Notes under the pieces: model-generated | Told to the model about the DNA's origin: nothing | The model's database searches: none | The model's input: only the letters and a program-made list of their open reading frames with translations | NCBI GenBank assembly: GCA_903871235.1 | Contig: CAIQGA010000111.1 | Coordinates: forward strand, 8,662 to 72,661 | Source: an uncultured Chlorobiaceae bacterium | GTDB taxonomy: Bacteria > Bacteroidota > Chlorobiia > Chlorobiales > Chlorobiaceae | Reading direction: 5' to 3' | Length of the DNA stretch: 64,000 nt | Position numbers and translations under genes: made by a program | Shown here: piece after piece, positions 20,654 to 38,802 of the stretch | Position numbering within the stretch: the stretch's first letter is position 1 | Layout: each line of letters begins with the position of its first letter

Positions 20654-20668
20654 ACATGTTTAGGTTGT

Positions 20669-21181
20669 TCAGTAATTTACAGTTACGTCAAAGGTGCCTT
20701 TGTACACTCCCGCAGCTTGATTTTGCGCCACAGCGAGAGTTCCCCCTACCTTGAATGAATCATTATGATTGGTAAATTGGCCTTTTTTATCTCTGTCCAG
20801 GTTACTACTGGTCGATAACGTTACCGTCATCGTACTACCTTGAGGGTTTGTGATTTTGGTGGTTTGCGAAATTTTTACCTGGTAGGTTTTATTACTATGA
20901 ACGTCACCGATAACAGAAAATATTGCGGGGTGGCAGGTAGAACTTACGAGCACCACCGCTCCTGAGGAAGAACGTGATTGGTTATCAGCTTTATCAGGAT
21001 CGATTATGACCGCACCTCCGGCTCCAGGAACGATTGTGCCAAATGCCAGGTCAGTCAAAGCGCTGACACCAATGGCCGTTCCAATCGAAGCTGTTGCGGT
21101 GCCTTGGGCTGCTTGCGCATCATTTCCTGATGCGAGCAATAAAGCCGCCAGTCCTATGATGTATAAATTTTTTTTCTGCAA
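20669..21181 (-). CDS. DUF4402-type pilin-like secreted protein
   Basis: Probable TTG start at 21181 (track ORF extends to 21223); GTATASIGTAI, LAFGTIVPGAGG, FKVGGTLAVAQNQAAGVYKGTFDVTVNY. Confidence 0.8.
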   Translation of the reverse strand: MQKKNLYIIGLAALLLASGNDAQAAQGTATASIGTAIGVSALTDLAFGTIVPGAGGAVIIDPDKADNQSRSSSGAVVLVSSTCHPAIFSVIGDVHSNKTYQVKISQTTKITNPQGSTMTVTLSTSSNLDRDKKGQFTNHNDSFKVGGTLAVAQNQAAGVYKGTFDVTVNY

Positions 21182-21337
21182 GTTAAAATTACCCCGTTCA
21201 GTTCTCTTTCCTTGGTATGACACCCAGAGAGCATGCTGTTGTCAAAAAGATAAAAGTTTTGTTAATCACGAAACAGTGAAGGGCTGAAAACATATTTTCA
21301 GACCTCCACTGTAAATGAACGATATGCAAAAAGGTAC

Positions 21338-21868
21338 TTAATTGTATGCTACACTTATAGGAAAGGTTCCCTGGTACACACCAGCCACCTGGCCACTGGC
21401 AACAGTCAGTGTTCCACCAACATTAAAAACTTCCTGACCGCTTGCATCAAGTGCTCCTGCTGTAGTTGTTTTGGTGAAGGTACCAACAGCCATAGTTTCA
21501 CCAACAGACCCTGTTGTATTTGTGATATTAACTGATCCAACGGGTAGTGTTATCGTGTACGTATTACCAATATCTCCTGTGACTTTAAATTTCGCTGCTG
21601 ATTTTGTTATCTGATTGGTAAGCACTACTGTTCCTGTTGAACTTGATGCTCCTGCAGGTGTAATAGTCACCGTTCCGCCAGTGCCGGGAATAATGTGACC
21701 AAAGGCAAGATTACCTCCATTTGCGCCACTACCATCCTGAGTAATGGTTATCGCTGTTCCGATTTTTGCCGTAGCAGTACCTGTCGCAGAGTCTGTAAAC
21801 GCCTGAGCCTCACCACCAAAAGCAAGCAAAGCTGCTAAACTTGCGAGTGCCAAAATTCTCTTTGTCAT
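21338..21868 (-). CDS. DUF4402-type pilin-like secreted protein (first gene, probable major subunit)
   Basis: ATG at 21868 with AGGAG RBS; signal peptide ending AQA; GTATAKIGTAI, GNLAFGHIIPGTGGTVTI, FNVGGTLTVASGQVAGVYQGTFPISVAYN. Confidence 0.82.
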   Translation of the reverse strand: MTKRILALASLAALLAFGGEAQAFTDSATGTATAKIGTAITITQDGSGANGGNLAFGHIIPGTGGTVTITPAGASSSTGTVVLTNQITKSAAKFKVTGDIGNTYTITLPVGSVNITNTTGSVGETMAVGTFTKTTTAGALDASGQEVFNVGGTLTVASGQVAGVYQGTFPISVAYN

Positions 21869-22357
21869 GATGTATCTCCTGTTTCCGATTGAGTGATTGA
21901 TGTCTCTAAAAAAAATCTGATTCTGTAACCCGATTGTCACGGTGAGGCTCTTCTGAATCACTTCCCCTCACCACTATCTTGTTTCTGTGAGAAATATATA
22001 TAATTCAGTAATAAATAAAAAAAAATATATATGCTTTTTATATCGTTTAGAGCGTTCTTTGTGTCAATAATCGTTTATCTTGTTTTATTTAAAGGAGTTG
22101 GTCTTTTGTAAAAAAATACAGTTTTGGTGACCCTTATGACACAGTCGTATATATACGATTTGTGTTATTTTTATGGCTCAGTGGTGCAGAATTGTTCTGT
22201 CAACAGGTGCTTCACGGGGGAGGTTGGTGAGGGGAAGCAGAGGAAAAAAAATAGTTTACTATATTCAGCATCGCTGCAATGGCAGGCGTTGTGAGGCGCT
22301 GTTTTGTTGTTGTGCGCCCGGTTGATAACAGTTTTTTTTATTTTTACCGTTTTTTTT

Positions 22358-24805: not shown

Positions 24806-25285
24806 TCATGAAGCAATGCGATATTTCATTGCAACCGTTACCTCAAGCTCTTTTTTATCGAGCGTGAAAACACAATCCTCGAATTTTGGCCCGCCAAACC
24901 CGATCTTCGGGTTGTTTGAAACGCCAACACCCTCTTTGGGTATGCCAATAAAGTTGGTATCGAGTTTTCCGTTGTTGTTTTCGTCGTGCATGACGCTGAG
25001 GGCGTAACTGCCAAAGGGAAGATGCTCAAAAACAACCGTTTCGGCACTGCTGCTCATATTTTTCATTACTGAGCGACAGGCTTGCTGGTGTTTGCCGGGA
25101 AACCCTTTTTTTGAGTTGTAGAGCGAAACGCCAAACATGCCGGGAAGGTTTTTCATGCCGCTAATATGCACCGTGATTGAGCCAAACCGGGTTAGGGGTT
25201 CAGGAGTGTTTTCTGCTGCGAAAACTGCGGCGGAAATTGCAAAAACAAAAAAGAGGGCGGTGAAAATTGTGAACAGTTTTTTCAT
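24806..25285 (-). CDS. DUF2141-family secreted protein
   Basis: Signal peptide; YALSVMHDENNNGKLDTNFIGIPKEGVGVSNN, GPKFEDCVF. Confidence 0.85.
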   Translation of the reverse strand: MKKLFTIFTALFFVFAISAAVFAAENTPEPLTRFGSITVHISGMKNLPGMFGVSLYNSKKGFPGKHQQACRSVMKNMSSSAETVVFEHLPFGSYALSVMHDENNNGKLDTNFIGIPKEGVGVSNNPKIGFGGPKFEDCVFTLDKKELEVTVAMKYRIAS

Positions 25286-25475
25286 AGGAAGTGGTAAGAA
25301 GGATTATCCAGAGCATGATCAATTACTATTGCGCTGCACGCAATATGGATAATCATAACACCCTGTACAATAAAAAGATTTGGCGCGGCAATAACCTGCC
25401 GTTTTCTGTTTTTTTGAGATAAAAAAACTGCGTAAATTGTTATAAAATCTTTTTATCCAAAGCAAGAGAACGGTC

Positions 25476-28400
25476 ATGAAGAAAAAGTTACCAGCCACTG
25501 ATCTGAAAGTCGGAGCAGAAGGTTCCGGGGAGCATCCACCTCGCAAGTTCTCTTTTCCTGTTATCGGGATTGGGGCTTCGGCGGGCGGGCTTGAAGCGCT
25601 GGAAATTTTTTTAAAAAATGTTTCACCCCGATGCGGTGTTGCCTTTGTGATTGTTCAGCATCTTGATCCGACGCACAAGGGGATTATGGTGGAACTGCTT
25701 CAGCGGGTTACCGGTATGGAGGTGGTTCAGGTCAGCGACAGGATTTTTATTGAAAAAAACCACGTCTATGTCATTCCTCCGAACAAGGATATGTCGATGT
25801 TGAACGGTATGCTGCATTTGCTTGATCCTGTTCAGCCACGGGGATTGCGCTTGCCAATCGACTTTTTTTTTCGTTCCATGGCTGATGATCTTTGCCAGCA
25901 CTCCGTCGGAGTGATTCTTTCAGGCATGGGTTCTGACGGTACGTTGGGTTTGCGTGCCATACAGGAGAAGGGTGGTGGTGTTTTTGTTCAGGATCCTGCA
26001 TCGGCCAAGTTTGACGGCATGCCTCGCAGTGCAATCAATGCCGGCCTGGCCGATGTTGTCGCTCCGGTAGAGGAACTCCCGGCAAGAATCTTTGCCTATC
26101 TCAAGCATATTCATTCATTTTGTGTTGAAGAGCATCGCCTTGAGGTGAGTGCCCAGAGTGCCCTGGAAAAGGTGATAATCCTTTTACGTGCACAGACCGG
26201 TCACGATTTTTCGATGTATAAAAAAAATACCGTCTACCGCCGCATCGAACGTCGTATGGGCATTCATGAGATTGAAAAGATTGCCATGTATGTCCATTTT
26301 TTGCAGGAAAATCCGCATGAAGTTGAACTGCTCTTCAAGGAGTTGTTGATTGGGGTTACAAGCTTTTTTCGTGATCCGGGCGTTTGGGAGGTGTTGAAAA
26401 AGAGCGCAATTCCCTCTCTTCTCTCTTTCCAACCGGCTGATGGTCTCTTTCGAGCATGGGTGAGCGGCTGTTCTACCGGCGAGGAAGCCTATTCTCTCGC
26501 CATTGCTTTCAGGGAGGTGGTTGATGCGCTCAAACCGGCGAAGAATTTCAGACTGCAGATTTTTGCAACAGACCTCGATAAAGATGCCATTGACAGGGCT
26601 CGCCAGGGGATCTATCCGGCCAATATCGCAAGTGATGTTTCGCCCGATCGGTTGCAGCGTTTTTTTGTAAAAGACGAGCATCATGGCTACAGGATATCAA
26701 GAGATATTCGCGAAACGATTGTTTTTGCGCCCCATAATGTCATCATGGACCCTCCTTTTACCAAGCTCGATATTATTGTATGCCGAAACCTTTTGATTTA
26801 TATGGAGCAGGAGTTGCAGAAAAAGCTTCTCCCCCTGTTTCATTACAGCCTCAATGCGGGTGGTCTTCTTTTTCTCGGGACAGCAGAAAGCATCGGTTCC
26901 TTTACCTATCTTTTTGACTCTCTTGATGCCAAGGCTCGAATTTTTCGAAAACTTCGTTATGGCCACCGCGCAGAGCCGGTCGAGTTTCCCGCCTCTTTTG
27001 CTCCTGTGTTATATAAATCAGCGGAGATGATTGGCCATCGCGCCGTAATGAAAGCAGGCGATATGAACCTGCAGTCAGTAACTGATCAGTTTTTGCTTCA
27101 GCATTATACTCCGGCGGGGGTACTGACCAACGAAAAGGGTGATATCATCTCTATCAGTGGGCGCACAGGCAAGTACCTTGAGCCTGCAGCAGGCAAGGCT
27201 AACTGGAATGTCTTTGCCATGGCTCGTGAAGGGCTTCGCTACGAACTGAATATCCTCTTTGGAAGTGTGATTCGCAAAAAAAAGAGCCTTGTAAAAAAAG
27301 GGGTGGTGGTTGGCACAAACGGTGGCAGGCAGCAGGTCGATTTGACGGTTGAGTTGCTTGAAGCGCCTGAAATTTTACGAGGGTTGCTGCTGATTGTTTT
27401 TAAAGATGTTGATGGTGTTTCGGCTGATTTGGTAACAGGGAGTGCTGAACATGCAGACGCCGGAAGTGATCATGCGGAGTTGATCGGTCAAGAGCTCAAG
27501 GAGGCGCAGAATGAAATTTTGATTATTCGCGAAGAGATGCAGACCTCCCAGGAAGAGCTAAAATCGATGAATGAAGAGATGCAGTCGGCCAATGAAGAGT
27601 TGCAGAGCACCAACGAAGAGCTGACAACCTCAAAAGAGGAGATGCAGTCACTCAATGAGGAGTTGCAGACGGTCAATCATGAGCTGCAATCGAAGGTGAC
27701 CGATTTGTCGGAAACCAATAATGATATGAAAAATCTGCTCAACAGCACTGATATTGCAACACTCTTTCTTGATGATGCGCTCAATATACGCCGCTTCACC
27801 AACCGGACGGCAGCAATTATCAAGCTGATTGCGACCGACATTGGTCGTCCCGTCACCGATATTGTGACTGATCTGCACTATCCCAACCTGATTGATGATG
27901 CGCGTGAAGTGCTTCGCACCCTTGTGTACAGTGAAAAACAGATTCCGGCAAGTGACGGCAGGTGGTTTATTGTTAAAATCATGCCCTATCGTACGCAGGA
28001 AAACAGGATTGTCGGGCTGGTGATTACCTTTACCGACATCACTGCTGTCAAGAAGTTTGAGGGCTCTTTGCAGGAAAGTGAAGAGCGTTTTCGCTTTTTG
28101 TTTGAAGCGATGCCTGGCGGCGCTCTCCTCCAGGATTGTGATGGCAAAATTCTGATGGTCAACAGGGAGGCGGAACGGATGTTTGGAATTTCTGAAAAAG
28201 AGATGCAGGGCAAAATGATGGAGGAGTTGCGATTGAAAGCTCTTCATGAAGATGGCTCTCCATTTGCGGTTGGCGACTATCCTTTTCAGCTTGCTTTGCA
28301 ATCCGGCAAGCCTGTCAAAGAGATCATGATGGGTCTGTTGCAACATTCAGACAAGGAGTGCCGCTGGATCAAGGTCAGCGCAGTGTCTCGTTTCAAGGCG

Positions 28401-28499
28401 GAGAGGGCGCAATCAGTTCAGGTTGTCTCAACATTTTTTGAAATACCAAACCACCTGCCAGGGAGCAAGAGTGGTGGAAGCGAGGAGTGTCAATCATGA
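25476..28499 (+). CDS. CheB-CheR fusion (methylesterase + methyltransferase + coiled coil + PAS domains), copy 1
   Basis: CheB triad GASAGG / VQHLDP / SGMGSDG; CheR FFRD, GCSTGEEAYS, ATDLD, CRNLLIY; EELQSTNEEL heptads; C-terminal PAS domains; no kinase domain. Confidence 0.93.
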   Translation: MKKKLPATDLKVGAEGSGEHPPRKFSFPVIGIGASAGGLEALEIFLKNVSPRCGVAFVIVQHLDPTHKGIMVELLQRVTGMEVVQVSDRIFIEKNHVYVIPPNKDMSMLNGMLHLLDPVQPRGLRLPIDFFFRSMADDLCQHSVGVILSGMGSDGTLGLRAIQEKGGGVFVQDPASAKFDGMPRSAINAGLADVVAPVEELPARIFAYLKHIHSFCVEEHRLEVSAQSALEKVIILLRAQTGHDFSMYKKNTVYRRIERRMGIHEIEKIAMYVHFLQENPHEVELLFKELLIGVTSFFRDPGVWEVLKKSAIPSLLSFQPADGLFRAWVSGCSTGEEAYSLAIAFREVVDALKPAKNFRLQIFATDLDKDAIDRARQGIYPANIASDVSPDRLQRFFVKDEHHGYRISRDIRETIVFAPHNVIMDPPFTKLDIIVCRNLLIYMEQELQKKLLPLFHYSLNAGGLLFLGTAESIGSFTYLFDSLDAKARIFRKLRYGHRAEPVEFPASFAPVLYKSAEMIGHRAVMKAGDMNLQSVTDQFLLQHYTPAGVLTNEKGDIISISGRTGKYLEPAAGKANWNVFAMAREGLRYELNILFGSVIRKKKSLVKKGVVVGTNGGRQQVDLTVELLEAPEILRGLLLIVFKDVDGVSADLVTGSAEHADAGSDHAELIGQELKEAQNEILIIREEMQTSQEELKSMNEEMQSANEELQSTNEELTTSKEEMQSLNEELQTVNHELQSKVTDLSETNNDMKNLLNSTDIATLFLDDALNIRRFTNRTAAIIKLIATDIGRPVTDIVTDLHYPNLIDDAREVLRTLVYSEKQIPASDGRWFIVKIMPYRTQENRIVGLVITFTDITAVKKFEGSLQESEERFRFLFEAMPGGALLQDCDGKILMVNREAERMFGISEKEMQGKMMEELRLKALHEDGSPFAVGDYPFQLALQSGKPVKEIMMGLLQHSDKECRWIKVSAVSRFKAERAQSVQVVSTFFEIPNHLPGSKSGGSEECQS

Positions 28500-29863
28500 A
28501 AAAAAACAAGGTTAGCCCGCTCGAACTCTCTGCATTGCGGCGCAGGGCTGAAGAGCGCCTCGAGAAGAGTGGAGAGAAAGATAAGGGAGGGGCTCTTTCA
28601 CCGGCCGAGATGCATCGACTGATTCATGAATTGTCGGTTCACCAGATTGAGCTTGAAATGCAGCAGGAGGAGCTCATGCAGTCGCGCGATGAAATGGAGG
28701 CTGGACTTGAGCGTTATACTGAACTCTATGACTTTGCACCGGTTGGTTACCTGACGCTTGCGCGCGATGGTACCATACTTGAGGTAAACCTGACGGCAAC
28801 GAAGATGCTTGGTGTGGATCGTTCACTTTTAAAGGGGGCCCGCATTGCGCTTTTTCTTGATCCTGAGGGGATAAAGAGTTTTAATGCACTGATGGAGAGG
28901 GTTTTCAGTCATAAAGAGCCCCATTTTTGTGAGTGTATGCTGGTGCACGAAGAGAGCGCGTTGACTTTGCAACGTACGGTCTGCATTGATGCAGTTGTTC
29001 AGGACGATGGCCAGTCATGCAGGGCGGTGCTTTCGGACGTTACCCACCAGAAGCAGATTGAGAGAGAGAATGCTGCACTTCAGGCAACTCTGGTTCATGC
29101 AGAGAAGATGGAGTCGATCGGCAGGCTGGCGGGTGGTGTTGCTCATGAAATTAACAATATGCTGCAGGTGATGCTGGGTAATATTGAGATACTGATTGCT
29201 ACAGGGGATCTTGATGCCTCGATGCACCTCCCACTTGTTGACGTGCGGAATTCGATTATGAAATCAGCAGAGATTGTCAGAAAACTGCTTGTTTTTGCCC
29301 GCAAGGAGCTTGTCAATCCGACGAAACTTGATCTCAATACGTCGCTGAAGGAGATGGGGGAGCGGCTCGAATGCCTGCTGGGAGACAATATCCGGCTGAC
29401 TTTTAGCCTGGGCGAAGGGCTCTGGTCAGTGGATATGTATCTGCCGCAAATAGAACAGATCATGATTAATCTTACCCTCAATGCAAGGGATGCCATGAAG
29501 GAGGGAGGTGACTTTTTTATTGCGACCCGTAATGTTCAGGTTGATGCTCCATTTTCTCAATCGCATCCTGAAATTGAGCCGGGCGATTATGTTGTGGTCG
29601 AGGTTGGTGATAACGGATGTGGCATGGACAAGGAGACGCTTGATTTTGTTTTTGAGCCCTTTTTTACCACAAAACCGATGACCGAGGCAACCGGGCTCGG
29701 GCTTGCCGTGGTCTATGGTATTGTCCGACAGAACCTTGGCGCTATTTTTGCGCACAGTACAAAGGGAAAGGGAACAACTTTTGAGATCTATTTGCCCCGA
29801 AGTACCTCACAAGACATTTCCCTTTCACAGCCAGATGCTGTCCATGAGGGGTTTATGCCTTAA
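28496..29863 (+). CDS. PAS sensor histidine kinase (no receiver domain)
   Basis: HELSVHQIELEMQQEEL..YTELYDFAPVGYLTL N-terminus; H-box GGVAHEINNML; NLTLNARDAM; DNGCGMD; FEPFFTTK; GLGLAVV. ATGA overlap with the CheBR stop. Confidence 0.92.
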   Translation: MKKNKVSPLELSALRRRAEERLEKSGEKDKGGALSPAEMHRLIHELSVHQIELEMQQEELMQSRDEMEAGLERYTELYDFAPVGYLTLARDGTILEVNLTATKMLGVDRSLLKGARIALFLDPEGIKSFNALMERVFSHKEPHFCECMLVHEESALTLQRTVCIDAVVQDDGQSCRAVLSDVTHQKQIERENAALQATLVHAEKMESIGRLAGGVAHEINNMLQVMLGNIEILIATGDLDASMHLPLVDVRNSIMKSAEIVRKLLVFARKELVNPTKLDLNTSLKEMGERLECLLGDNIRLTFSLGEGLWSVDMYLPQIEQIMINLTLNARDAMKEGGDFFIATRNVQVDAPFSQSHPEIEPGDYVVVEVGDNGCGMDKETLDFVFEPFFTTKPMTEATGLGLAVVYGIVRQNLGAIFAHSTKGKGTTFEIYLPRSTSQDISLSQPDAVHEGFMP

Positions 29864-29923
29864 AATAAGTTATCCCTTAAAAGCCTTGAATGGCTCTTGT
29901 AACCGGGAGACAACATACTCGCG

Positions 29924-31138
29924 TCAACAGATGCTGAATTCACCCCGGGCAAGGCGCTCCGTAAAGTGGATGATACCGGCCAGTTCGTCATCAATGATTG
30001 TGGCGACCGCTTCACGGATATCCTCAATCGTCACCCCTTCCGCCGGTATGATTTGTGCCGAAGCAGAAAGAGGTCGATCAATGGGCTGGCCGATCTGGCT
30101 GCAAAGAAAGAGTGAAACCTCCTCAACTCCCTTGACCTCACGGTAGATGCGTCCGGCGCACTCCCGTGCCAGCACATTATAGATTTTACCGACGTGGCGG
30201 ACAGGGTTCTTGCCGGCAGCGGCCTCAAGGCTGAGCGGCCTTTGGAACGAAATAAGGCCGTTGACCCTGTTACCTCTACCTACTTCACCTCCATCAGCCC
30301 CTTCAGCCGAGGTGCCGAGGACGGTCAGGTAGATACCACCTTCACCCCGAGTATGGTCGTCGAGCATGTTCAGCTCTATGGTGATTTTTTCGAAGGGATG
30401 ACGCTCTTCGGCAATAAAGGCGAGCACCGCCTCTCGCACCGCTTCCTTGCGTTTGAAATAGGTGGCGGTATCGGCGATAAAGCGATCTACAAAGGCAACG
30501 GCAATGGTCAGGGTTACGCTGTCACGATCGCGGAATGCCATTACCTTTACATCTTCGCCAGTTTCCGGGAATGCGAGCTTGAAAGCGGGGGAGTTGAGAT
30601 GGTTTTCGACTTTAAGCACAAGGGACTCTGTACTGCTGAGCGGCGCATAGCCCACTCCGACGGAGGTGTCGTTGGCGCCGACAATGCTTCTTGAAAAGAG
30701 GTCAGTCAGCTCTGCTGAACCGGGCTTGATTTCGTTCTGGAAGAGGATGTGCAGGCAGGGGTCAACAAAACGGAGGTTCTCTTTCAGCCATCTCGATGCG
30801 GCCTCTTCAGCAATTTCAGCAACAGGGATTGTTATTCCCTGGTAGTGGAAGGTCGCCCTGTCACCGAAAATAATTTTCATCGGCTCAAGTACCCTGCCTC
30901 CTCCCGGTTGTACCGCGCTTCTTCCGGCAACCAGCAGTCCCTTGTCGATGTTGTGGTGCAGAATGCTACCCGTAAGGGCAAGATACTCCCCGCAGAGGCT
31001 GATGCAGACCGCCTCCATGACCGAGTCGCAGATGGTATCGGGATGCCCTTTTCCCTTTCTCTCAATCAGCTCAACCCTGCGGATGCCAGCGGGAGCGCCG
31101 CCAGCATGTTCGACAATAATGTTCCTTGCTGCGCTCAT
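29924..31138 (-). CDS. mat: Archaeal-type methionine adenosyltransferase (SAM synthetase)
   Basis: ERKGKGHPDTICD, HHNIDK, GANDTSVGVGYAP, GEDVKVM, GRGNRVNGLI, EAAAGKNPVRHVGKIYN. Start at the ATG at 31138. Confidence 0.88.
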   Translation of the reverse strand: MSAARNIIVEHAGGAPAGIRRVELIERKGKGHPDTICDSVMEAVCISLCGEYLALTGSILHHNIDKGLLVAGRSAVQPGGGRVLEPMKIIFGDRATFHYQGITIPVAEIAEEAASRWLKENLRFVDPCLHILFQNEIKPGSAELTDLFSRSIVGANDTSVGVGYAPLSSTESLVLKVENHLNSPAFKLAFPETGEDVKVMAFRDRDSVTLTIAVAFVDRFIADTATYFKRKEAVREAVLAFIAEERHPFEKITIELNMLDDHTRGEGGIYLTVLGTSAEGADGGEVGRGNRVNGLISFQRPLSLEAAAGKNPVRHVGKIYNVLARECAGRIYREVKGVEEVSLFLCSQIGQPIDRPLSASAQIIPAEGVTIEDIREAVATIIDDELAGIIHFTERLARGEFSIC

Positions 31139-31407
31139 GTTCGCCGTGTCATGTTTTTTTTGCAAAAAGCCCATTTTTAAGCGTTTTTATGTTTAATTTA
31201 CTGTAAAAAAAGCTTTTTCCCATAGACGCTGACATTTGGGTTTGTTCTCTTTTTTTCTGCTGACCGATTTTCGGTAATTAACCATTGCGGTTCATTTCTA
31301 TTGGATAATTAGGCTATATTTGCTGTTGACGTTGTGGCTTGGCCTGTCAGAAGATCGGTACAGGTATTGGCCTTTTGAGAGTCGGCAAACACCAAAGTAT
31401 TGAAGCT

Positions 31408-34400
31408 ATGGAAGAAGAGCAAAAGCCAGGCAGGAAACATTCCGCAAAGAAAGTTGCTCCCCCTGCGAAAGTTGTTGATACCGTAAAGGAGAAGAGGCCT
31501 CTTCTATTTCCTATAATTGGTATAGGTGCTTCGGCTGGTGGCCTTGAGGCATTGGAACTCTTTTTGAAAAACGTTCCGTTTTCATCCGGTATGGCGTTTG
31601 TTATTGTCCAGCATCTTGACCCGACACACAAGGGCATTATGGCGGAACTCCTCCAGCGTTCGACCCCCATGCCGGTAGAGCAGATCACGGATGATCTGGT
31701 TGTCAAAAAAAATCATGTTTATATTATTCCGCCCAATAAGGATCTTACACTTTTTCATGGGGTATTGCGTTTACTCGACCCTGTTAAACCAAGGGGGCTG
31801 CGACTGCCGATTGACTATTTTTTCCGCTCACTGGCTGATGATTTAATGGAGCTCAGTATCGGTGTTATTCTGTCGGGGATGGGTTCAGATGGTATGTTGG
31901 GCTTGAGGGCTATCAAGGAGATAGGAGGTGGTGCTTTTGTACAGGATCCTTTGACAAGCAAGTTTGACGGTATGCCTCGCAGTGCCATCAATGCAGGCTT
32001 GGCCGATGTGGTTGCCCCTGTGGAGGAGTTACCGGGGAAAATTATCAACTTTTTTCACCATCGCCCTCATCTGGGCAGCAGTTCCAGTCTCACGTTGCAG
32101 GATAAAACGCAGAGTGCGTTCGACAAAATCATGCTCATTTTGCGACATCAGACCGGTCATGATTTCTCTCTGTACAAAAAAAGTACCATTTATCGCCGTA
32201 TTGAACGACGCATGGGCATTCACAATATTGAGCGTATTAATGACTATGTCCGTTTTTTGCAGGAAAATAGTACAGAGTCAGAATTGCTTTTTAATGAGTT
32301 GCTCATAGGGGTGACAAGTTTTTTCCGTGACCCTGCGGCATGGGAAAGGCTCAAGAGTGGTTCCATTCCCCTTTTGCTTGCATCACGCCCTGAAGGGGGT
32401 GTTTTGCGGGCATGGTCAGTTGGCTGCTCTACTGGAGAGGAGGCCTACTCTCTTGCAATTATTTTCAGGGAGGCGATAGAGGATTTAAAGCTTCCAAAAA
32501 ATTATTCGCTTCAGATTTTTGCAACAGACCTCGACAAACATGCAATTGATATTGCTCGTGAAGGTTCCTATCCCCGGAACATCGTAGCCGATGTTTCCGA
32601 AGAGCGGCTCCATCGATTTTTTACCAAGAGTGAAGAGGGGTATCGAGTTAACAAAAGTATCCGGGAACAGATAGTTTTTGCCCCTCAAAACCTCATCAAG
32701 GATCCGCCGTTCACAAAACTTGATATCCTTGTTTGCCGAAATTTACTCATTTATCTGGAACCAGAACTGCAGAAAAGGCTTGTCCCCTTGTTTCATTACA
32801 GCTTGAATCCTGGAGGGTTTCTCTTTCTTGGCAGTGCAGAAAATATGTACGGCGACACTGAATTATTCATTCCGTTTGAAGGCGCGGCACATATTTTTCA
32901 ACGCACGACCAATACCTCTGTTTCTAAATTTGTTGATTTTGCAGATACTTTTTCCGGCCTGTTTCAGCGCAGTTATCCTAAAAAAAATTTGGAGCCACCG
33001 AAAGAGTCTCCTGCAAGTATCTCTACTCTTGCGGAACGCCTTATTTTGAAGGAGTATGCTCCAGTTTCTCTTCTTACAACCCGTCAGGGTGACATTATCT
33101 ATATTAACGGTCGTACCGGAAACTATATTGAGCCGATATCAGGCAAGGCTAACTGGAATATTTTTGCCATGGTTCGTGAAGGGCTTAAATTCTCATTGAG
33201 CAACCTTTTCGAAAAGGCGTTGCGAAGCAATACAACGGCCACGGTGAAGGATGTTGTTCTTAAAAAGAACAATGAGTCGGTGATGGTCGATATGACGGTG
33301 GAACCCATAAAAAAACCTGACCAGCTCGCAGGTATGTTTCTTTTTGTCTTTACCGAAAAAAGTGTGGTTGAAAAAAAGGATATCAAGATCAGGCAAGAGG
33401 AAGAAGAAAAATTTTCCCCCGACCAAATGCAGCTTGTGGATGAACTCAAGCGTGTCCGCTCAGAGCTGCTTGCCACGCATGAAGATATGCAAACGTCGCA
33501 GGAGGAGCTCAAGAGCATGAATGAGGAGCTGCTCAGCGCCAATGAAGAGCTGCAAAGTACCAATGAAGAGCTCTCAACGGCCAAAGAGGAGATGCAGTCG
33601 CTCAATGAGGAGCTCCAAACCGTGAATCAGGAGCTGCAGGGAAAGCTTGATGAGCTGGGGCGCACCAGCGATGACATGAAAAACCTGCTTAACAGCACTC
33701 AAATTGCAACACTTTTTCTTGATGAACATCTTAATATTCGCAGTTTTACCAAAGCGATGGCCTCCATAAGCAAGTTTATGGCGATCGATAAAGGGCGCCC
33801 ATTCAGTGACATCGCCTCAACCCTGAACTATCCTGAACTGCGTGATGATGCGCTTTCGGTACTTGACACCCTTGTTTTCAAGGAAAAGCAGATCAGTACT
33901 ACCGATGAGCGATGGTTTTTGATTCGCATCATGCCCTATTGTACCCAGGACAACCATATCAATGGTCTCGTTATCACCTTTATTGATATCACCTTGAGCA
34001 AAAAGCTAGAGCTGAAACTTCTTGATGTTGAAAAGCGGTTTATGGTTCTCTTTAAACAGATGGCAGCTTGCTCACTTTTTTTGAACAGTGAGGGAACCAT
34101 CAGCATGGTTAATCCAGCCGCTGAACGATTTTTTGGGTTGACAGCATCGGAGATGGCGGGCCGGAGCTTTAAGGAGCTTAGTGTGAAGATGCTCTCGGAG
34201 GAGGGTCTGGATTTTGCGCCCGACGCAGACCCCTTTGCACAGGTATACCGAAGTGGAAAGCCGCTTAATGGCGTCGTTATGGGTTTCTCTTCTCCTTCCG
34301 GCACTGGCTGCCGATGGACGTTGATGGATGCCATTCCGCAATTTGCTGAAGACCATAGTAATCCATACCTCATCTACGTCGTGTTTGAAGAGATCCAGGA

Positions 34401-34437
34401 TCCCCAATCGCGCAACAACAAGCTAACAATCAGATGA
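31408..34437 (+). CDS. CheB-CheR fusion, copy 2
   Basis: Same architecture and catalytic motifs as copy 1 (GASAGG, VQHLDP, SGMGSDG, FFRD, GCSTGEEAYS, CRNLLIY, EELQSTNEEL). ATG at 31408. Confidence 0.93.
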   Translation: MEEEQKPGRKHSAKKVAPPAKVVDTVKEKRPLLFPIIGIGASAGGLEALELFLKNVPFSSGMAFVIVQHLDPTHKGIMAELLQRSTPMPVEQITDDLVVKKNHVYIIPPNKDLTLFHGVLRLLDPVKPRGLRLPIDYFFRSLADDLMELSIGVILSGMGSDGMLGLRAIKEIGGGAFVQDPLTSKFDGMPRSAINAGLADVVAPVEELPGKIINFFHHRPHLGSSSSLTLQDKTQSAFDKIMLILRHQTGHDFSLYKKSTIYRRIERRMGIHNIERINDYVRFLQENSTESELLFNELLIGVTSFFRDPAAWERLKSGSIPLLLASRPEGGVLRAWSVGCSTGEEAYSLAIIFREAIEDLKLPKNYSLQIFATDLDKHAIDIAREGSYPRNIVADVSEERLHRFFTKSEEGYRVNKSIREQIVFAPQNLIKDPPFTKLDILVCRNLLIYLEPELQKRLVPLFHYSLNPGGFLFLGSAENMYGDTELFIPFEGAAHIFQRTTNTSVSKFVDFADTFSGLFQRSYPKKNLEPPKESPASISTLAERLILKEYAPVSLLTTRQGDIIYINGRTGNYIEPISGKANWNIFAMVREGLKFSLSNLFEKALRSNTTATVKDVVLKKNNESVMVDMTVEPIKKPDQLAGMFLFVFTEKSVVEKKDIKIRQEEEEKFSPDQMQLVDELKRVRSELLATHEDMQTSQEELKSMNEELLSANEELQSTNEELSTAKEEMQSLNEELQTVNQELQGKLDELGRTSDDMKNLLNSTQIATLFLDEHLNIRSFTKAMASISKFMAIDKGRPFSDIASTLNYPELRDDALSVLDTLVFKEKQISTTDERWFLIRIMPYCTQDNHINGLVITFIDITLSKKLELKLLDVEKRFMVLFKQMAACSLFLNSEGTISMVNPAAERFFGLTASEMAGRSFKELSVKMLSEEGLDFAPDADPFAQVYRSGKPLNGVVMGFSSPSGTGCRWTLMDAIPQFAEDHSNPYLIYVVFEEIQDPQSRNNKLTIR

Positions 34438-34465
34438 AACGATGGTCATAAAAAAGGAACCTTTT

Positions 34466-34682
34466 ATGGCAGATTTTTCTGAAGAACAGGGTAAGGGCAA
34501 AAATTCAAAAGCCAATTCGATTGATGATTATGATGCCTTTTTTTACGACAAGGAGTAATGGTACATGCCCTGGAATTCCTATAGTTCGTGCCATTATGAA
34601 ACAAAACATGGGTTTTGTAATTCTTGATACTCAATTTGGCGAGGGAACCACTGTTCGACTCTATCTGCCTTGTTCTGCATAA
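34466..34682 (+). pseudogene. Histidine kinase HATPase C-terminal remnant
   Basis: With one T removed from the T7 run at 34538-34544 it reads DAFFTTRSNGTCPGIPIVRAIMKQNMGFVILDTQFGEGTTVRLYLP, aligning to EPFFTTK...GLGLAVVYGIVRQNLGAI...GKGTTFEIYLP of the kinase at 28496. Confidence 0.75.
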
Positions 34683-34733
34683 TATTTTTATAACACCTTT
34701 ACATGCTGCGGCAATCAGGCAAAAGGGATACTT

Positions 34734-36161
34734 ATGATTTTACAAGATGAGCATGTTTCATCGGTCGCTACAGTTGCATCGTCCGAGTTACGATATCGCC
34801 GGCTTTTTGAGAGCGCGCAGGATGGGATATTGATTCTTGACTTCGAGAGTGGTAAAATCGTCGATGCCAACCCTTTTATTGCCAAACTGATCGGTTACGC
34901 ATGCAATGAACTTCTTGGTAAGGAGCTTTGGGAGATTGGATTCATTGTCGACAAGGAGTTTGCGCGGAAGGCGTACGAGGAACTTCAGTCAAAAAATTAC
35001 ATCCGTTACGAAGATTTGCCATTGCAGCATAAAAAGGGCCAAATTATTGACGTTGAGTTTGTCAGTAATGTCTATGATGTCGGTCGTGAAAAAGTGATTC
35101 AGTGCAGCATTCGCGATGTTTCAGAGAGGAAATTTCTGGCTCAATCAGTCGCCCGCTCCGAGCTGCGCTACCGCAGTCTGTTTGAGAATGCGCAGAACGG
35201 TATCATGATTCTCGACTTCATGAGTGGTAAAATTGTCGATGCCAATCCGTTTATTCTTGATTTGCTGGGGTTTTCTGCGCATGAACTTTGCGGCAAAGAG
35301 CTCTGGGAAATCGGTTCTACGATTGACAAGGAGTTTGCGCTGCAGGCGTTTGAGGCGTTACAGAAGAAAAATTATATCCGGTATGAAAATCTGCCACTGA
35401 GAAAGAAATATGGTCAGTTGATTGATGTAGAGTTTACAGGCTCGGTGTACGATGTCGGCGGGGAAAAAGTGATTCAATGCGATATACGCGACATCTCAAA
35501 CCAGAAAAAACTGGTGCTCTATCAAAATCTTGCAATTTCAAATATGGAGGATCTCGTTAATGCTCTGGTCGCCATGAGCGAAGCAAGGGATCCTTATACG
35601 GCTGGCCACCAGCAACGGGTTTCGGAGCTCTCGGTAGCCATAGCCAAGGAGTTGCATTACTCTGAGGCCAATCTGGAAGGGTTGCGAATGAGCACCATGC
35701 TGCACGATATCGGCAAGTTTGCCATTCCGGCAGAGATTTTGACAAAACCGACGGAATTGACTGAGGACGAGGTGGGGTTGTTGCGTAGCCATGTTGTTGA
35801 AGGGTATAAAATCCTCAAGCTCATCCATTTTCCCTGGCCGGTGGCGCAAACCGTGTTGCAGCATCACGAACGTCTTGATGGCAGCGGTTATCCAAACGGC
35901 CTCAAGGGCGACAGTATCAGTGACGAGGCACGCATTATTGCTGTGGCCGATACCGTTGAGGCGCTGACCAGTTCAAGGCCCTACCGGTCAGCCGTCGGGC
36001 TCGACATCGCCTTGATGAACATTCAGGAGGAGAGTGACCGATTGTTTGATCCAAAAATTGTAGCCGTATGCCTGAGGCTTTTTAAAGAGAAGAAATTCAA
36101 GTTTTCTGCATCAAAGCTCAAGGTCTCATACACTGTTCAAAGTGTAAGAAAGTCCCTTTAA
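34734..36161 (+). CDS. PAS-PAS-HD-GYP cyclic-di-GMP phosphodiesterase
   Basis: RDPYTAGHQQRV, LHDIGK, HHERLDGSGYPNGL, ADTVEAL..RPYR. Confidence 0.92.
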   Translation: MILQDEHVSSVATVASSELRYRRLFESAQDGILILDFESGKIVDANPFIAKLIGYACNELLGKELWEIGFIVDKEFARKAYEELQSKNYIRYEDLPLQHKKGQIIDVEFVSNVYDVGREKVIQCSIRDVSERKFLAQSVARSELRYRSLFENAQNGIMILDFMSGKIVDANPFILDLLGFSAHELCGKELWEIGSTIDKEFALQAFEALQKKNYIRYENLPLRKKYGQLIDVEFTGSVYDVGGEKVIQCDIRDISNQKKLVLYQNLAISNMEDLVNALVAMSEARDPYTAGHQQRVSELSVAIAKELHYSEANLEGLRMSTMLHDIGKFAIPAEILTKPTELTEDEVGLLRSHVVEGYKILKLIHFPWPVAQTVLQHHERLDGSGYPNGLKGDSISDEARIIAVADTVEALTSSRPYRSAVGLDIALMNIQEESDRLFDPKIVAVCLRLFKEKKFKFSASKLKVSYTVQSVRKSL

Positions 36162-36178
36162 CCCTCACGAGATTTGCC

Positions 36179-38047
36179 ATGCAGCCTGATACCATGAAGA
36201 GTAACGGTTTTCTCGACAAAAACAGTGGGTTCTCATTTTTTTCACTCTTTTTTACTCTTTTGGAACCGGTCTTTCTTGTTGACACAGAGGGTGTCATTCT
36301 TGATGCCAATACGGCTTTTTGCGACCAGTTTTGCACCTCCGTGACGGAGTGCCGTGGTAAAAATTATCATAGGTTGCTTTTGCCTGAAATAGCCGATCAG
36401 CGGTTGACCATGATAAAAGAGGCCGTGCGCACTCGGAAAACAGTTTTCTGGGACGATGAACAGGATGAAAAATTTCTGCGCTACAGCGTTCATCCCTGTC
36501 AATCCCCGCAGGGTGAAATCACTCAATTGCTGATCATTGCCCAGGATGTTACCGATATCCTGAAGTCGTTGAAAAATGAGAGGCTGTTCAGTACATCGGT
36601 TATTGAAGCCATTCCCGGCTCCTTTTATGTCATTGATGCAGGCGGAAAAATGACGGTGTGGAATCGTTACGTTCGTGACCAGATTTTTGGTAAAGCTGAA
36701 AGCGAGATGCGGGGTATTATTGGTATCGAGTGCATTCATCCGGATGACAGGGCGATGATGGCTGAGAAAATAGAGAGGATTATGAAACACGGCGAAGAGT
36801 TGATCGCTGAAACCAAGGTACTGCTTCTTGGCGGCCCGGAATGGAGGAGCTTTTTGATGACCGGCAACAGAATGGTGATTGACGGAAATCCGTTTCTTAT
36901 TGGTGCAGGTATTGATATTACAGCGCGGAAAGCGGCCGAGGAAGAGGTTGCGCTTCAGTTGCAACATATACGCTCTTTACGGGAAATTGACCTTGCCGTA
37001 AGGGGAACTACCGATGTCTACCTCTCGCTTAAAATTATTCTTGACTTCACCCTTTCAGAGCTGCATGTTGATGCTGCGGATTTTCTTTTAATGGAGCGCT
37101 CTCTCAATACACTGAGTTATGTTGTGGGATGCGGGTTTCGGGCGAAAAAAATTGAACGTACCGATTTACACATCATACCAGGCTCTGCCTATGAGTGCCT
37201 GCTTGAACACAAAGAGCTGCATCTTTCAAACTGTGGCGGGGTGCAGGGTGAATTTTTGCCCTCTTCTCTTATGACGAGTGAGGGATTTGTTGACTACTAC
37301 GTCATCCCTTTGGTTGTTAAAGGGGAGCTTATTGGTCTTTTTGAAGTTTTTCAACGTACCGCACTCCAGTTAACTCTTGATGGTTTTGATTTTATCCATA
37401 CTCTGGCAGGGCAGGCGGCTATGGCGATTGAAGATTATCGATCAGTCAGAAGCTTGCGTCTGGCCAATCAGGAGCTGTTGCGGGCCTATGATGCGACCAT
37501 TGAGGGGTGGTCGCACGCACTTGATTTGCGCGACGAAGAGACCGAAGGCCACTCCCGGCGCGTGACAGAGATGACCATGAAGCTTGCCCGCGCAGCCGCA
37601 ATCCCGGATGAAGCGTTGCCAGATATTCGTCGCGGATCCTATTTGCATGATATTGGCAAGATGGCTCTCCCTGATGCGATTCTTTTTAAGGATGATCAGT
37701 TGACAGAGGAGGAGTGGGTTGTCATGCGCAAGCATCCTGTGTTTGCCTATGAATTTCTTTCACCGATCACCTACCTGCATGGGGCGCTCGATATACCCTA
37801 TTGCCATCATGAAAAATGGGATGGAAGCGGTTACCCTCGGGGATTGAAAGGGGAGCAAATTCCATTGGCCGCGCGTTTGTTCGCAATTGTTGATGTGTGG
37901 GATGCCCTGCAGTCTAATCGCCGCTATCGCCAGGGTTTGCCGAAGCAGGAATTGATTGAGCATATCAAATCGCTTTCCGGCACGCACTTCGACCCCGAAA
38001 TTGTTGCTCTGTTTCTGGATATGATAACCACAGGGGAGTTGCCCTGA
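36179..38047 (+). CDS. PAS-PAS-GAF-HD-GYP cyclic-di-GMP phosphodiesterase
   Basis: RDEETEGHSRRV, LHDIGK, HHEKWDGSGYPRGL, DVWDAL..RRYR. Confidence 0.92.
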   Translation: MQPDTMKSNGFLDKNSGFSFFSLFFTLLEPVFLVDTEGVILDANTAFCDQFCTSVTECRGKNYHRLLLPEIADQRLTMIKEAVRTRKTVFWDDEQDEKFLRYSVHPCQSPQGEITQLLIIAQDVTDILKSLKNERLFSTSVIEAIPGSFYVIDAGGKMTVWNRYVRDQIFGKAESEMRGIIGIECIHPDDRAMMAEKIERIMKHGEELIAETKVLLLGGPEWRSFLMTGNRMVIDGNPFLIGAGIDITARKAAEEEVALQLQHIRSLREIDLAVRGTTDVYLSLKIILDFTLSELHVDAADFLLMERSLNTLSYVVGCGFRAKKIERTDLHIIPGSAYECLLEHKELHLSNCGGVQGEFLPSSLMTSEGFVDYYVIPLVVKGELIGLFEVFQRTALQLTLDGFDFIHTLAGQAAMAIEDYRSVRSLRLANQELLRAYDATIEGWSHALDLRDEETEGHSRRVTEMTMKLARAAAIPDEALPDIRRGSYLHDIGKMALPDAILFKDDQLTEEEWVVMRKHPVFAYEFLSPITYLHGALDIPYCHHEKWDGSGYPRGLKGEQIPLAARLFAIVDVWDALQSNRRYRQGLPKQELIEHIKSLSGTHFDPEIVALFLDMITTGELP

Positions 38048-38130
38048 ACGCTTGTCAGGATGGGCAGCATCCCTGGTTATTGGCAGAAGGGTTGTGAAGG
38101 GGGAAGAACAGTGTGGTGTCGAACGCTGCT

Positions 38131-38211
38131 GAGCTGACGCTTATGAAACCTGCCGATGATGCCATGTACCAGTCGAAGAGCAGGGGGTGAAATTGCTTTA
38201 CTCTTTTTGGG
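38131..38211 (+). pseudogene. GGDEF-domain C-terminal remnant
   Basis: ELTLMKPADDAMYQSKSRG*NCFTLFG versus ELTLMKHADDAMYKSKSDGKNRITVFG at the end of the cyclase (3768-3847). Confidence 0.8.
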
Positions 38212-38220
38212 AATAAGGTG

Positions 38221-38802
38221 TCATAAAAAGGCTTTGAGCGCCTTGCAGACCCGTGAGAGGGGGAGGCCGACTACATTGTAGTAGCATCCTTCAATTCGCC
38301 GGACGTGGCAGGCCATGAGGGGATCCTGAATGCCGTAGGCGCCTGCCTTGTCGAAAGGTTTTTCTGAGAGGAGGTAGCGCTTTATTTCATTGTCTGACAT
38401 GGGCTCAAATTCAACGGTGGTGGTCACGCATTCGGTGTGGGTTTTAAGTCCAAAAAGGAGCACAAAACCGGTATAGACCCGGTGCGAGCGGTTCTGGAGG
38501 CTTTTGAGCATATCGAACGCATCGTCAAATCCTGCCGGTTTTCCATAGATTCGGTTTCCTTTTGCCACGACGGTATCGGCGGTGAGAATGATGCTGCTTT
38601 TTCTTCTTTCTGGCGACAGCAGCAGCAGGGCTGCCTCTGCTTTTTCAAGCGAGATTCTGGTGACATTTTCTTCGATTGAGCGCGAGGGGTCGAGGACTTC
38701 CGGAGTCTCGACCGCCAGGGTTTCAAATGGGAGGAGCGTCAATGAGAGAATGTCGCGCCTTCTTGGTGACTGTGATGCAAGAATAAGTGCCGGTTTGGCC
38801 AT
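38221..38802 (-). CDS. maf: Maf-family nucleoside triphosphate pyrophosphatase
   Basis: LILASQSPRRRDIL, ADTVV, YGKP, DKAGAYGIQ, YNVVGLP. Confidence 0.95.
   Translation of the reverse strand: MAKPALILASQSPRRRDILSLTLLPFETLAVETPEVLDPSRSIEENVTRISLEKAEAALLLLSPERRKSSIILTADTVVAKGNRIYGKPAGFDDAFDMLKSLQNRSHRVYTGFVLLFGLKTHTECVTTTVEFEPMSDNEIKRYLLSEKPFDKAGAYGIQDPLMACHVRRIEGCYYNVVGLPLSRVCKALKAFL

What the first reader, a model, noticed from the sequence alone, without database searches (positions are those of the whole stretch)
25476..38211. Non-chemotactic methylation-signalling cluster: CheBR - kinase - SAM synthetase - CheBR - HD-GYP x2
Seen: two catalytically intact CheB-CheR-coiled-coil-PAS fusions, one translationally coupled to a receiver-less PAS kinase. 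An archaeal-type MAT gene lies between them, and two HD-GYP phosphodiesterases follow. No MCP, CheA, CheW, CheY or flagellar gene is in the window. Established: CheR needs SAM; HD-GYP domains degrade c-di-GMP; CheBR fusions occur in many bacteria and their substrates are largely unknown; most Chlorobiaceae are non-flagellated. Inference: a self-contained circuit in which reversible glutamate methylation, with its own SAM supply, tunes a kinase and c-di-GMP output.
Basis: partly seen in the sequence, partly recalled or inferred. Interest (0 to 1): 0.75.

Follow-up and report, generated by a model that had tools for sequence, protein, structure and literature searches.

The report
Two MAC1 methylation sensors beside unrelated MAT
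The genes are real, but the SAM synthetase is an ordinary second copy found in most green sulfur bacteria and is not part of the circuit; the real unit is a catalogued but untested CheB-CheR "methyl-accepting coiled-coil" protein paired with a kinase that carries a conserved N-terminal helix.

Summary
All six genes exist as described, and the enzymes look catalytically intact. The genome has no MCP, CheW/CheA or FlhA.

1. **The archaeal-type MAT is not part of the circuit.**
   - It lies on the opposite strand.
   - It occurs in 64 of 81 Chlorobiaceae genomes, whether or not CheBR is present (80% vs 78%, p=0.79).
   - In other genera it sits in its own housekeeping context.
   - It is absent from ±10 kb of 80 CheBR loci drawn from many phyla.
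   - It touches a CheBR gene in only 4 congeners.
   - Eight genomes have CheBR and no MAT. MetK is near-universal.
2. **The CheBR proteins belong to the known, uncharacterised MAC1 class.** Their NEELQS(T/A) coiled coil is their most conserved part.
3. **The conserved partner is the next gene.** It carries an N-terminal helix, HELSVHQIELEMQNEEL.
   - Helix and CheBR co-occur almost perfectly: 38 of 41 CheBR genomes against 1 of 40 without CheBR.
   - The helix lies just downstream in 67 of 78 cross-phylum loci.
4. **CheBR2 has lost its partner kinase.** A 46-codon remnant remains at 34536-34673.
5. **The two adjacent HD-GYP proteins lack the helix.** Three HD-GYP and two GGDEF paralogues elsewhere in the genome carry it.

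Verdict: a new member of a known kind, with a useful helix-tag lead.

The parts
25476..28499 (+). CheBR1: MAC1-type protein with CheB methylesterase, CheR_N, CheR methyltransferase, an NEELQS(T/A) heptad coiled coil (aa ~680-745), PAS_10 and PAS. It has no REC domain and no kinase domain.
   Evidence: Pfam and NCBIfam. The catalytic motifs are intact. Orthologues of 76-78% identity follow cobUTS-DUF2141 in G022, G019 and G052. The coil is the most conserved segment across 56 homologues from other phyla.
27513..27710 (+). Coding region for the coiled coil of CheBR1 (aa 680-745: REEMQTSQEELKSMNEEMQSANEELQSTNEELTTSKEEMQSLNEELQTVNHELQ). This is the candidate methyl-accepting segment.
   Evidence: Sequence. 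Mean identity to 56 cross-phylum homologues is 0.79, and 0.93 for aa 706-735. The corresponding values are 0.74 for CheB and 0.65 for CheR. The EE-x-x-S-(T/A) units resemble the MCP methylation consensus EExxA(S/T); that comparison rests on established knowledge and is an inference.
28496..29863 (+). Partner kinase: N-terminal helix tag (HELSVHQIELEMQQEEL...LYDFAPVGY, ORF aa ~38-90), PAS, HisKA and HATPase_c, with no receiver domain. Its ATG overlaps the CheBR1 stop codon (ATGA).
   Evidence: The helix profile A1 matches it at E 3e-30. Orthologues directly follow CheBR1 in G022, G019 and G052.
29924..31138 (-). Archaeal-type methionine adenosyltransferase (PF01941). It is an independent gene on the opposite strand and is not part of the signalling module.
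   Evidence: It is single-copy, and bacterial MetK is also present on C27. It occurs in 64 of 81 family genomes, independently of CheBR. In other genera it lies in a housekeeping context. The start at 31138 is inferred from G019, which has a stop codon upstream of that Met. No riboswitch was found.
31408..34437 (+). CheBR2: a second MAC1-type paralogue with the same architecture, 57% identical to CheBR1. The longest ORF starts at TTG 31339; ATG 31408 is the more likely start.
   Evidence: Orthologues of 70-77% identity occur only in G022, G073, G074 and G049 of the 81 genomes.
34536..34673 (+). Remnant (last ~46 codons of the HATPase_c domain, then a stop) of the deleted partner kinase of CheBR2.
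   Evidence: It is 26/46 identical (E 9e-20) to aa 392-437 of the 440-aa helix-tagged kinase that lies between CheBR2 and HDGYP1 in G074. The G2 box GTGLG has become GTCPG. All the other frames of the gap contain stop codons.
34734..36161 (+). PAS-PAS-HD-GYP phosphodiesterase (HDGYP1). It has no helix tag.
   Evidence: No match to the helix HMM. A 75%-identical orthologue follows CheBR2-HK in G074.
36179..38047 (+). PAS-PAS-GAF-HD-GYP phosphodiesterase (HDGYP2). It has no helix tag.
   Evidence: No match to the helix HMM. Its orthologue lies next to MAT, with no CheBR2 present, in G019.

Best explanation
The region is a lineage-specific juxtaposition of three things, not one circuit.

**A. An operon of a MAC1-type protein (CheBR1) and its cognate kinase.**
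- CheBR1 has the architecture CheB-CheR-coiled coil-PAS_10-PAS.
- The kinase begins with a conserved helix, HELSVHQIELEMQNEEL, followed by PAS.
- Likely mechanism (inferred): the PAS domains sense a cytoplasmic signal.
- The fused CheR and CheB then add and remove methyl groups on Glu/Gln pairs. The targets would be the protein's own NEELQS(T/A) coiled coil, the similar helix of the partner, or both.
- The helix docks on or packs against that coil, so the methylation state sets kinase output. This would give an MCP-free, CheA/CheW-free adaptation or memory device.
- SAM would come from the general pool.

**B. An independent archaeal-type MAT gene on the other strand.** It is a dispensable second MAT that most Chlorobiaceae carry in addition to MetK.

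**C. A second MAC1 paralogue (CheBR2).**
- Its own helix-tagged kinase has been deleted in this genome, leaving a 46-codon stub.
- It now abuts two PAS/GAF HD-GYP genes that lack the helix.
- CheBR2 probably acts in trans on some of the 11 helix-tagged proteins of the genome. Their outputs are 5 kinases, 2 GGDEF, 3 HD-GYP and 1 wHTH.

**What is shown:** gene content, motifs, strand arrangement, phyletic patterns, neighbourhood conservation and the deletion remnant.

**What is inferred:** what gets methylated, and how the helix couples to output.
For: - **Architecture and intact motifs:**
- **No MCP, CheW/CheA or FlhA in the genome:**
- **MAC1 class described and untested:** (bioRxiv 10.1101/2022.05.07.491037; PMC6943060).
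- **Helix and CheBR co-occur:** present together in 38 genomes, CheBR alone in 3 (partial or contig-edge copies), helix alone in 1, neither in 39. Fisher p=2e-18.
- **Helix position:** it starts within 1.5 kb downstream on the same strand in 67 of 78 CheBR loci. These come from Desulfobacterota, Chloroflexota, Verrucomicrobiota, Acidobacteriota, NC10 and a Thermoplasmata MAG.
- **CheBR3:** the third paralogue (C198) is also directly followed by a helix-tagged hybrid kinase.
- **Coil conservation:** the coil is the most conserved segment of the protein.
- **MAT is independent:**
- **Kinase remnant:**
Against: - No experiment exists for any MAC1 protein, so substrate and mechanism are inference.
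- The helix EE pair is not invariant. The helix could therefore be only a docking or dimerisation element rather than a substrate.
- Phyletic counts are not phylogenetically independent. Part of the co-occurrence follows trivially from operon co-inheritance.
- The MAT-CheBR2 divergent pair persists in 4 of the 5 genomes that have a CheBR2-type gene, while their flanks differ. This leaves a small chance of shared regulation.
Confidence: 0.75

Rival explanations
1. The MAT is a dedicated SAM source for the flanking CheBR methyltransferases, and the six genes form one self-contained circuit.
For: - MAT sits between the two CheBR genes, and its divergent pairing with CheBR2 recurs in G022, G073 and G074. 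Those three MATs are 69-87% identical to the window's, and their flanks differ.
- The genome also has MetK, so the MAT is an 'extra' enzyme.
Against: - It is on the opposite strand and is its own transcription unit.
- MAT is present in 31 of 40 genomes without CheBR and absent from 8 of 41 with CheBR (p=0.79).
- A CheBR1-HK orthologue exists in G052, and a CheBR2 orthologue in G049, with no MAT in either genome.
- G019 keeps the MAT next to HDGYP2 with no CheBR2.
- 0 of 80 cross-phylum CheBR loci have a MAT or MetK nearby.
- In other genera the MAT lies between a CDF transporter gene and GT4/CorC-mreB-hisD-queA-acnB.
- In G076 and G063 it is divergent from cobUTS.
Confidence: 0.06
2. The two adjacent HD-GYP phosphodiesterases are genuine outputs of CheBR2, so methylation state controls c-di-GMP breakdown locally.
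For: - The HDGYP1 orthologue (75% identity) follows CheBR2-HK in G074.
- In G049 a helix-tagged PAS-HD-GYP is divergent from CheBR2.
- A Syntrophales locus (L089) has a helix-tagged HD-GYP right after its CheBR.
- Three helix-tagged HD-GYP and two helix-tagged GGDEF paralogues exist in this genome.
Against: - HDGYP1 and HDGYP2 have no helix tag.
- Only 5 of 80 CheBR loci have any HD-GYP within 10 kb.
- The direct adjacency is secondary to the kinase deletion.
- HDGYP2 stays next to MAT in G019, which has no CheBR2.
Confidence: 0.2
3. CheBR2 is on its way to becoming a pseudogene-like relic, and the cluster is a decaying signalling island with no coordinated function apart from the CheBR1-HK pair.
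For: - Its partner kinase has been deleted.
- CheBR2-type genes occur in only 5 of 81 genomes.
- The neighbourhood is highly rearranged among close relatives.
Against: - CheBR2 is a full-length open frame with every catalytic motif and the coil intact.
- Ten other helix-tagged proteins are available in trans.
- Several relatives carry many more helix proteins than CheBR genes, for example G076 with 17 helix proteins and 1 CheBR. That suggests action in trans is normal.
Confidence: 0.15

Closest known systems
MAC1 methyl-accepting coiled-coil proteins (Wuichet and Zhulin 2010, as cited in bioRxiv 10.1101/2022.05.07.491037 and MiST3, PMC6943060). Databases label the same family 'CheB/CheR fusion protein' (cheBR); that label is recalled from memory and from earlier scan notes.
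   Same: - CheB and CheR domains fused to a heptad coiled coil and PAS_10.
- No dependence on MCP, CheA or CheW.
- Wide and patchy phyletic spread.
- Never characterised experimentally.
   Different: - The kinase is a separate, translationally coupled gene rather than part of the same polypeptide.
- The genome is one of the minority with no other chemotaxis system at all.
- The genome holds 3 MAC1 genes and 11 proteins that carry the partner helix, with mixed outputs.
Canonical MCP adaptation system (CheR/CheB acting on EExxA(S/T) sites of chemoreceptors; structures 1AF7 and 1A2O).
   Same: - Homologous catalytic domains with intact active-site motifs.
- The candidate substrate is a Glu-pair heptad helix.
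   Different: - No MCP, CheA or CheW is present.
- CheB lacks its REC domain, so it cannot be controlled by CheA phosphorylation.
- The enzymes are fused to each other and to the presumed substrate.
Wsp system of Pseudomonas (WspA MCP, WspC/WspF methylation enzymes, WspR diguanylate cyclase). Recalled from established knowledge.
   Different: - Wsp needs an MCP (WspA), a CheA-like WspE and CheW-like proteins. None of these exists here.
- Here any c-di-GMP link would run through helix-tagged GGDEF or HD-GYP proteins encoded elsewhere in the genome.
Archaeal-type methionine adenosyltransferase (Pfam PF01941; NCBIfam NF003363).
   Same: A full-length match above the equivalog cut-off (626 bits against 557).
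   Different: Here it is a second, dispensable MAT alongside MetK in a bacterium. It is present in 64 of 81 Chlorobiaceae genomes. No functional tie to the neighbouring genes was found.

Membership tests
MAC1 / CheB-CheR fusion (cheBR) family | CheB methylesterase and CheR methyltransferase domains in one polypeptide | tested here: met
   In both proteins PF01339, PF03705 and PF01739 all score far above their cut-offs.
MAC1 / CheB-CheR fusion (cheBR) family | Heptad coiled coil resembling an MCP methylation region, followed by PAS_10 | tested here: met
   NEELQS(T/A) heptads at aa 680-745 are followed by PAS_10 (E 8e-32). The coil is the most conserved segment across phyla.
MAC1 / CheB-CheR fusion (cheBR) family | [quoted passage not shown] | tested here: not met
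   CheBR1 and CheBR2 have no HisKA or HATPase_c domain. For CheBR1 the kinase is the next gene, with an ATGA overlap. For CheBR2 the kinase has been deleted. This is a split variant of the architecture.
MAC1 / CheB-CheR fusion (cheBR) family | Match to the MiST3 MAC1 profile HMM | not testable with these tools
   The MiST3 profiles are not in any of the libraries offered (describes them).
Canonical chemotaxis adaptation system | MCP substrate plus a CheA/CheW signalling complex in the genome | tested here: not met
   0 MCPsignal and 0 CheW-domain matches in the 99.95%-complete genome. The control genomes were positive in both searches.
Canonical chemotaxis adaptation system | Catalytic residues of CheB (Ser-His-Asp) and the SAM-binding motifs of CheR | tested here: met
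   S35, H62 and D154 sit in their conserved contexts. The CheR motifs were aligned to 1AF7 and 5FTW.
HD-GYP c-di-GMP phosphodiesterase | HD_5 domain with HD and HHExxDGxGYP motifs | tested here: met
   PF13487 scores E 1.5e-39 and 1.2e-34. HDIGK and HHE(R/K)xDGSGYP are present in both proteins. Enzymatic activity was not tested.
   - 0 of 80 cross-phylum loci carry a MAT or MetK nearby.
- 4 of 64 MAT-bearing family genomes show adjacency.
- Presence of the two genes is not associated, p=0.79.

The most novel reading that the evidence does not exclude
The N-terminal helix HELSVHQIELEMQNEEL is an addressing tag. It makes otherwise ordinary PAS proteins clients of MAC1 CheB-CheR enzymes; the clients include kinases, GGDEF cyclases, HD-GYP phosphodiesterases and a wHTH regulator. 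A few PAS-regulated 'writer/eraser' proteins would then set the Glu-methylation state of their own coil and of many helix-tagged effectors in trans. That would be a methylation-based signalling network parallel to phosphorelay. In Chlorobiaceae it runs with no MCP, CheA or CheW. I found no paper describing this helix or its link to MAC1. Earlier agents of this scan saw the same pairing in other phyla.
Probability: 0.35. Interest if true: 0.8.

Novelty: new member of a known kind. Interest (0 to 1): 0.4.

Why it matters
As posed, with a private SAM supply, the finding does not hold and would have sent experimenters after the wrong gene.

What remains is still useful. MAC1 proteins are widespread and extremely conserved: 60-66% identity across phyla, and 93% in the coil. 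According to the literature read here, they are completely uncharacterised.

Chlorobiaceae offer a clean natural experiment:
- Half the genomes have CheBR, and those same genomes have the helix-tagged proteins.
- There is no background chemotaxis machinery.
- Within one genome the outputs span two-component, c-di-GMP and DNA-binding proteins.

This makes two questions directly testable: what CheB/CheR fusions methylate, and how the signal leaves them.

Tried and rejected
1. **CheBR1 and the kinase as a frameshifted single gene.** The 1464-1482 aa 'open frames' suggested this. Rejected: G022 also has a stop codon and then a new ATG 15 nt later, and the window has a clean ATGA overlap.
2. **A SAM riboswitch or other RNA element upstream of MAT.** Nothing in Rfam matched 25000-38500 apart from one chance-level hit.
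3. **A shared operator in the MAT/CheBR2 intergenic region.** The alignment of four genomes shows only a promoter-like TTGATT...TATATT block for CheBR2. The promoter and terminator scans did not exceed the shuffled controls.
4. **G019's MAT as a pseudogene** (1 TAA). Rejected: the stop lies upstream of the real start codon.
5. **Literature.** Searches for 'CheBR', CheB-CheR fusions, the helix or coil peptide strings, and archaeal-type MAT in Chlorobi gave little. Only the MAC papers were useful.
7. **Structure prediction.** Not run. A monomer model would not address the heteromeric coil-helix question.
Full report
**1. Observation**

The six genes are real. Pfam and NCBIfam give the following.
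- 25476-28499 (+) and 31339/31408-34437 (+): two proteins with the architecture CheB_methylest, CheR_N, CheR, coiled coil, PAS_10, PAS. They are 57% identical to each other.
- 28496-29863 (+): a PAS-HisKA-HATPase_c kinase with no receiver domain.
- 29924-31138 (-): an archaeal-type AdoMet synthase. PF01941 scores E 3e-155, and NF003363 is above its equivalog cut-off.
- 34734-36161 (+): a PAS-PAS-HD-GYP protein.
- 36179-38047 (+): a PAS-PAS-GAF-HD-GYP protein.

Catalytic motifs are present in both CheBR proteins. These are the CheB Ser/His/Asp contexts and the CheR FFRD, CSTGEEAYS, FATDLD and CRNLLIY motifs. Both phosphodiesterases have the HD and GYP motifs. The CheBR1 stop and the kinase start overlap as ATGA.

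The absence of chemotaxis genes holds for the whole 3.3-Mb, 99.95%-complete genome. It has no MCP signalling domain, no CheW domain and therefore no CheW or CheA, and no FlhA.

The flanks are cobU-cobT-cobS and a DUF2141 gene on one side, and maf and a sodium:solute symporter on the other.

**2. Is the MAT part of it?**

I sampled 81 genomes of the family. Contig titles identify it as Chlorobiaceae, and the genus as Chlorobium-like. Presence counts:

| Gene | Genomes with it (of 81) |
|---|---|
| Archaeal-type MAT | 64 |
| CheBR | 41 |
| Bacterial MetK | 77 (70 of 71 high-quality) |

The own genome has both MetK and MAT. The MAT against CheBR table is 33 with both, 8 with CheBR only, 31 with MAT only and 9 with neither. 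That is 80% against 78%, Fisher p=0.79.

*Adjacency.* A MAT gene lies next to a CheBR gene in only four genomes: the own genome, G022, G073 and G074. In each case the neighbour is the CheBR2 type, in divergent orientation.

*Double dissociation.*
- G049 has a CheBR2 orthologue and no MAT anywhere in the genome.
- G052 has cobUTS-DUF2141-CheBR1-HK and no MAT.
- G019 has the MAT next to the HDGYP2 orthologue with no CheBR2.
- G076 and G063 have the MAT divergent from cobUTS.

*Context in the other two genera.* There the MAT sits in a conserved housekeeping context. A CDF transporter gene is on one side. On the other are GT4 or CorC, then mreB, hisD, queA and acnB.

*Wider survey.* In 80 CheBR loci from many phyla, with up to 10 kb of flank, no MAT or MetK was found. 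No riboswitch or other known RNA element lies in the region.

The MAT is a family-wide, dispensable second MAT that happens to lie here.

**3. What the CheBR proteins are**

[quoted passage not shown] The MAC1 type incorporates CheB and CheR domains. [quoted passage not shown]

CheBR1, CheBR2 and a third paralogue on contig C198 fit this class, except that the kinase is a separate gene.

The family is remarkably conserved. Homologues in Desulfobacterota, Chloroflexota, Verrucomicrobiota, Acidobacteriota, NC10 and even a Thermoplasmata MAG are 60-66% identical over about 870 residues.

Conservation within the protein, measured across 56 homologues from outside the Chlorobiaceae:

| Segment | Mean identity to CheBR1 |
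|---|---|
| Coil, aa 680-745 | 0.79 |
| Best 30-aa window, aa 706-735 | 0.93 |
| CheB domain | 0.74 |
| CheR domain | 0.65 |

The NEELQS(T/A) heptad coil is thus the most conserved part. Its EE-x-x-S-(T/A) units resemble the MCP methylation consensus. That comparison rests on established knowledge and the match is my inference.

**4. The real partner**

The kinase begins with a helix, HELSVHQIELEMQQEEL...LYDFAPVGY. A profile of this 52-residue element (A1) finds 11 proteins in the own genome. One is the hybrid kinase directly after CheBR3.

By Pfam their outputs are five histidine kinases, two GGDEF cyclases, three HD-GYP phosphodiesterases and one OmpR-type winged-helix protein.

*Phyletic pattern.* Across the 81 family genomes the helix and CheBR co-occur almost perfectly: both in 38, CheBR only in 3 (partial or contig-edge copies), helix only in 1 (at a contig edge), and neither in 39. 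Fisher p=2e-18. These counts are not phylogenetically independent.

*Position.* In 67 of the 78 cross-phylum loci with enough downstream sequence, the helix begins within 1.5 kb after the CheBR core on the same strand.

*Ratios.* Some genomes have many more helix proteins than CheBR genes, for example 17 to 1 in G076. That suggests action in trans.

I found no paper containing these peptide strings. Earlier AI notes of this scan report the same pairing in other phyla. I treated them as leads and tested the claim independently here.

**5. CheBR2 and the HD-GYP genes**

In G074 the order is MAT(-), CheBR2, a helix-tagged kinase of 440 aa, then HDGYP1 (75% identical).

In the window the 297-nt spacer between CheBR2 and HDGYP1 encodes PFFTTRSNGTCPGIPIVRAIMKQNMGFVILDTQFGEGTTVRLYLPC at 34536-34673.
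- It is 26/46 identical to the last residues of that kinase, E 9e-20.
- All other frames of the spacer contain stop codons.

So the partner kinase of CheBR2 was deleted in this lineage, and the CheBR2/HD-GYP adjacency is secondary.

HDGYP1 and HDGYP2 have no helix tag. HD-GYP domains occur near CheBR in only 5 of 80 loci.

A c-di-GMP link is still plausible at genome level for three reasons:
- Five of the 11 helix-tagged proteins make or break c-di-GMP.
- G049 has a helix-tagged HD-GYP divergent from CheBR2.
- One Syntrophales locus has a helix-tagged HD-GYP right after its CheBR.

**6. Mechanism, with what is shown and what is inferred**

*Shown:*
- Intact writer and eraser domains fused to an ultra-conserved Glu-pair coil.
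- An obligatory genomic association with helix-tagged PAS proteins.
- The absence of MCP, CheA and CheW.

*Inferred:*
- PAS-regulated CheR and CheB set the methylation of the coil, the similar helix, or both.
- The helix packs on the coil and transmits this state to the kinase or another output.
- SAM comes from the general pool.

*Confidence:*
- About 0.9 that the MAT is a bystander.
- About 0.85 that CheBR1-HK is a functional MAC1 pair.
- About 0.5 for the specific substrate and coupling model.

**7. Novelty and verdict**

The cluster as posed is not a new system. It is a pair of split MAC1 modules, one of which has lost its kinase. They lie next to an unrelated MAT and two untagged HD-GYP genes, in a rearrangement-prone, signalling-gene-rich region.

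Novelty class: new member of a known kind.

The helix-tag network is the interesting residue, and Chlorobiaceae are a clean background in which to test it.

No experiment exists for this family.

Noticed in passing
window 34536-34673 (+): A 46-codon stub of a histidine-kinase ATPase domain lies in the CheBR2/HDGYP1 spacer. It is the remnant of a roughly 1.2-kb deletion of the kinase that G074 still has at this position.
   Followed up: yes
G000 contigs C142, C232, C167, C198, C107 (two genes), C103, C125, C25, C123 (loci L102-L111): Ten further proteins carry the HELSVHQIELEMQNEEL helix. Their outputs are HK, GGDEF, HD-GYP or OmpR-type wHTH. One of them directly follows a third CheBR paralogue on C198.
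   Followed up: yes
L022-L101: CheBR homologues are 60-66% identical over about 870 aa across very distant phyla, including a Thermoplasmata archaeon MAG. This implies strong constraint and probably frequent horizontal transfer.
   Followed up: partly
L005-L013 (MAT loci of other Chlorobiaceae genera): The archaeal-type MAT has a conserved housekeeping neighbourhood: CDF transporter, MAT, GT4 or CorC, mreB, hisD, queA, acnB. It coexists with MetK in nearly every genome, so Chlorobiaceae usually keep two unrelated MATs. The reason is unknown.
   Followed up: partly
L015, L016 (G076, G063): In these congeners the MAT is divergent from cobU-cobT-cobS. The window also has cobUTS 5 kb from the MAT. 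A MAT/cobalamin association in this genus might relate to B12-dependent radical-SAM methylations, but that is speculation.
   Followed up: no
window 1464-3884 (+): A GAF-PAS-GAF-GGDEF diguanylate cyclase. GGDEF homologues also flank the MAT in G073 and G019, which shows how rich in signalling genes these variable regions are.
   Followed up: no
window 19199-21961 (-): Three tandem DUF4402 genes plus neighbouring genes. Another note of this scan flagged them as a possible pilus operon. I did not examine them further.
   Followed up: no
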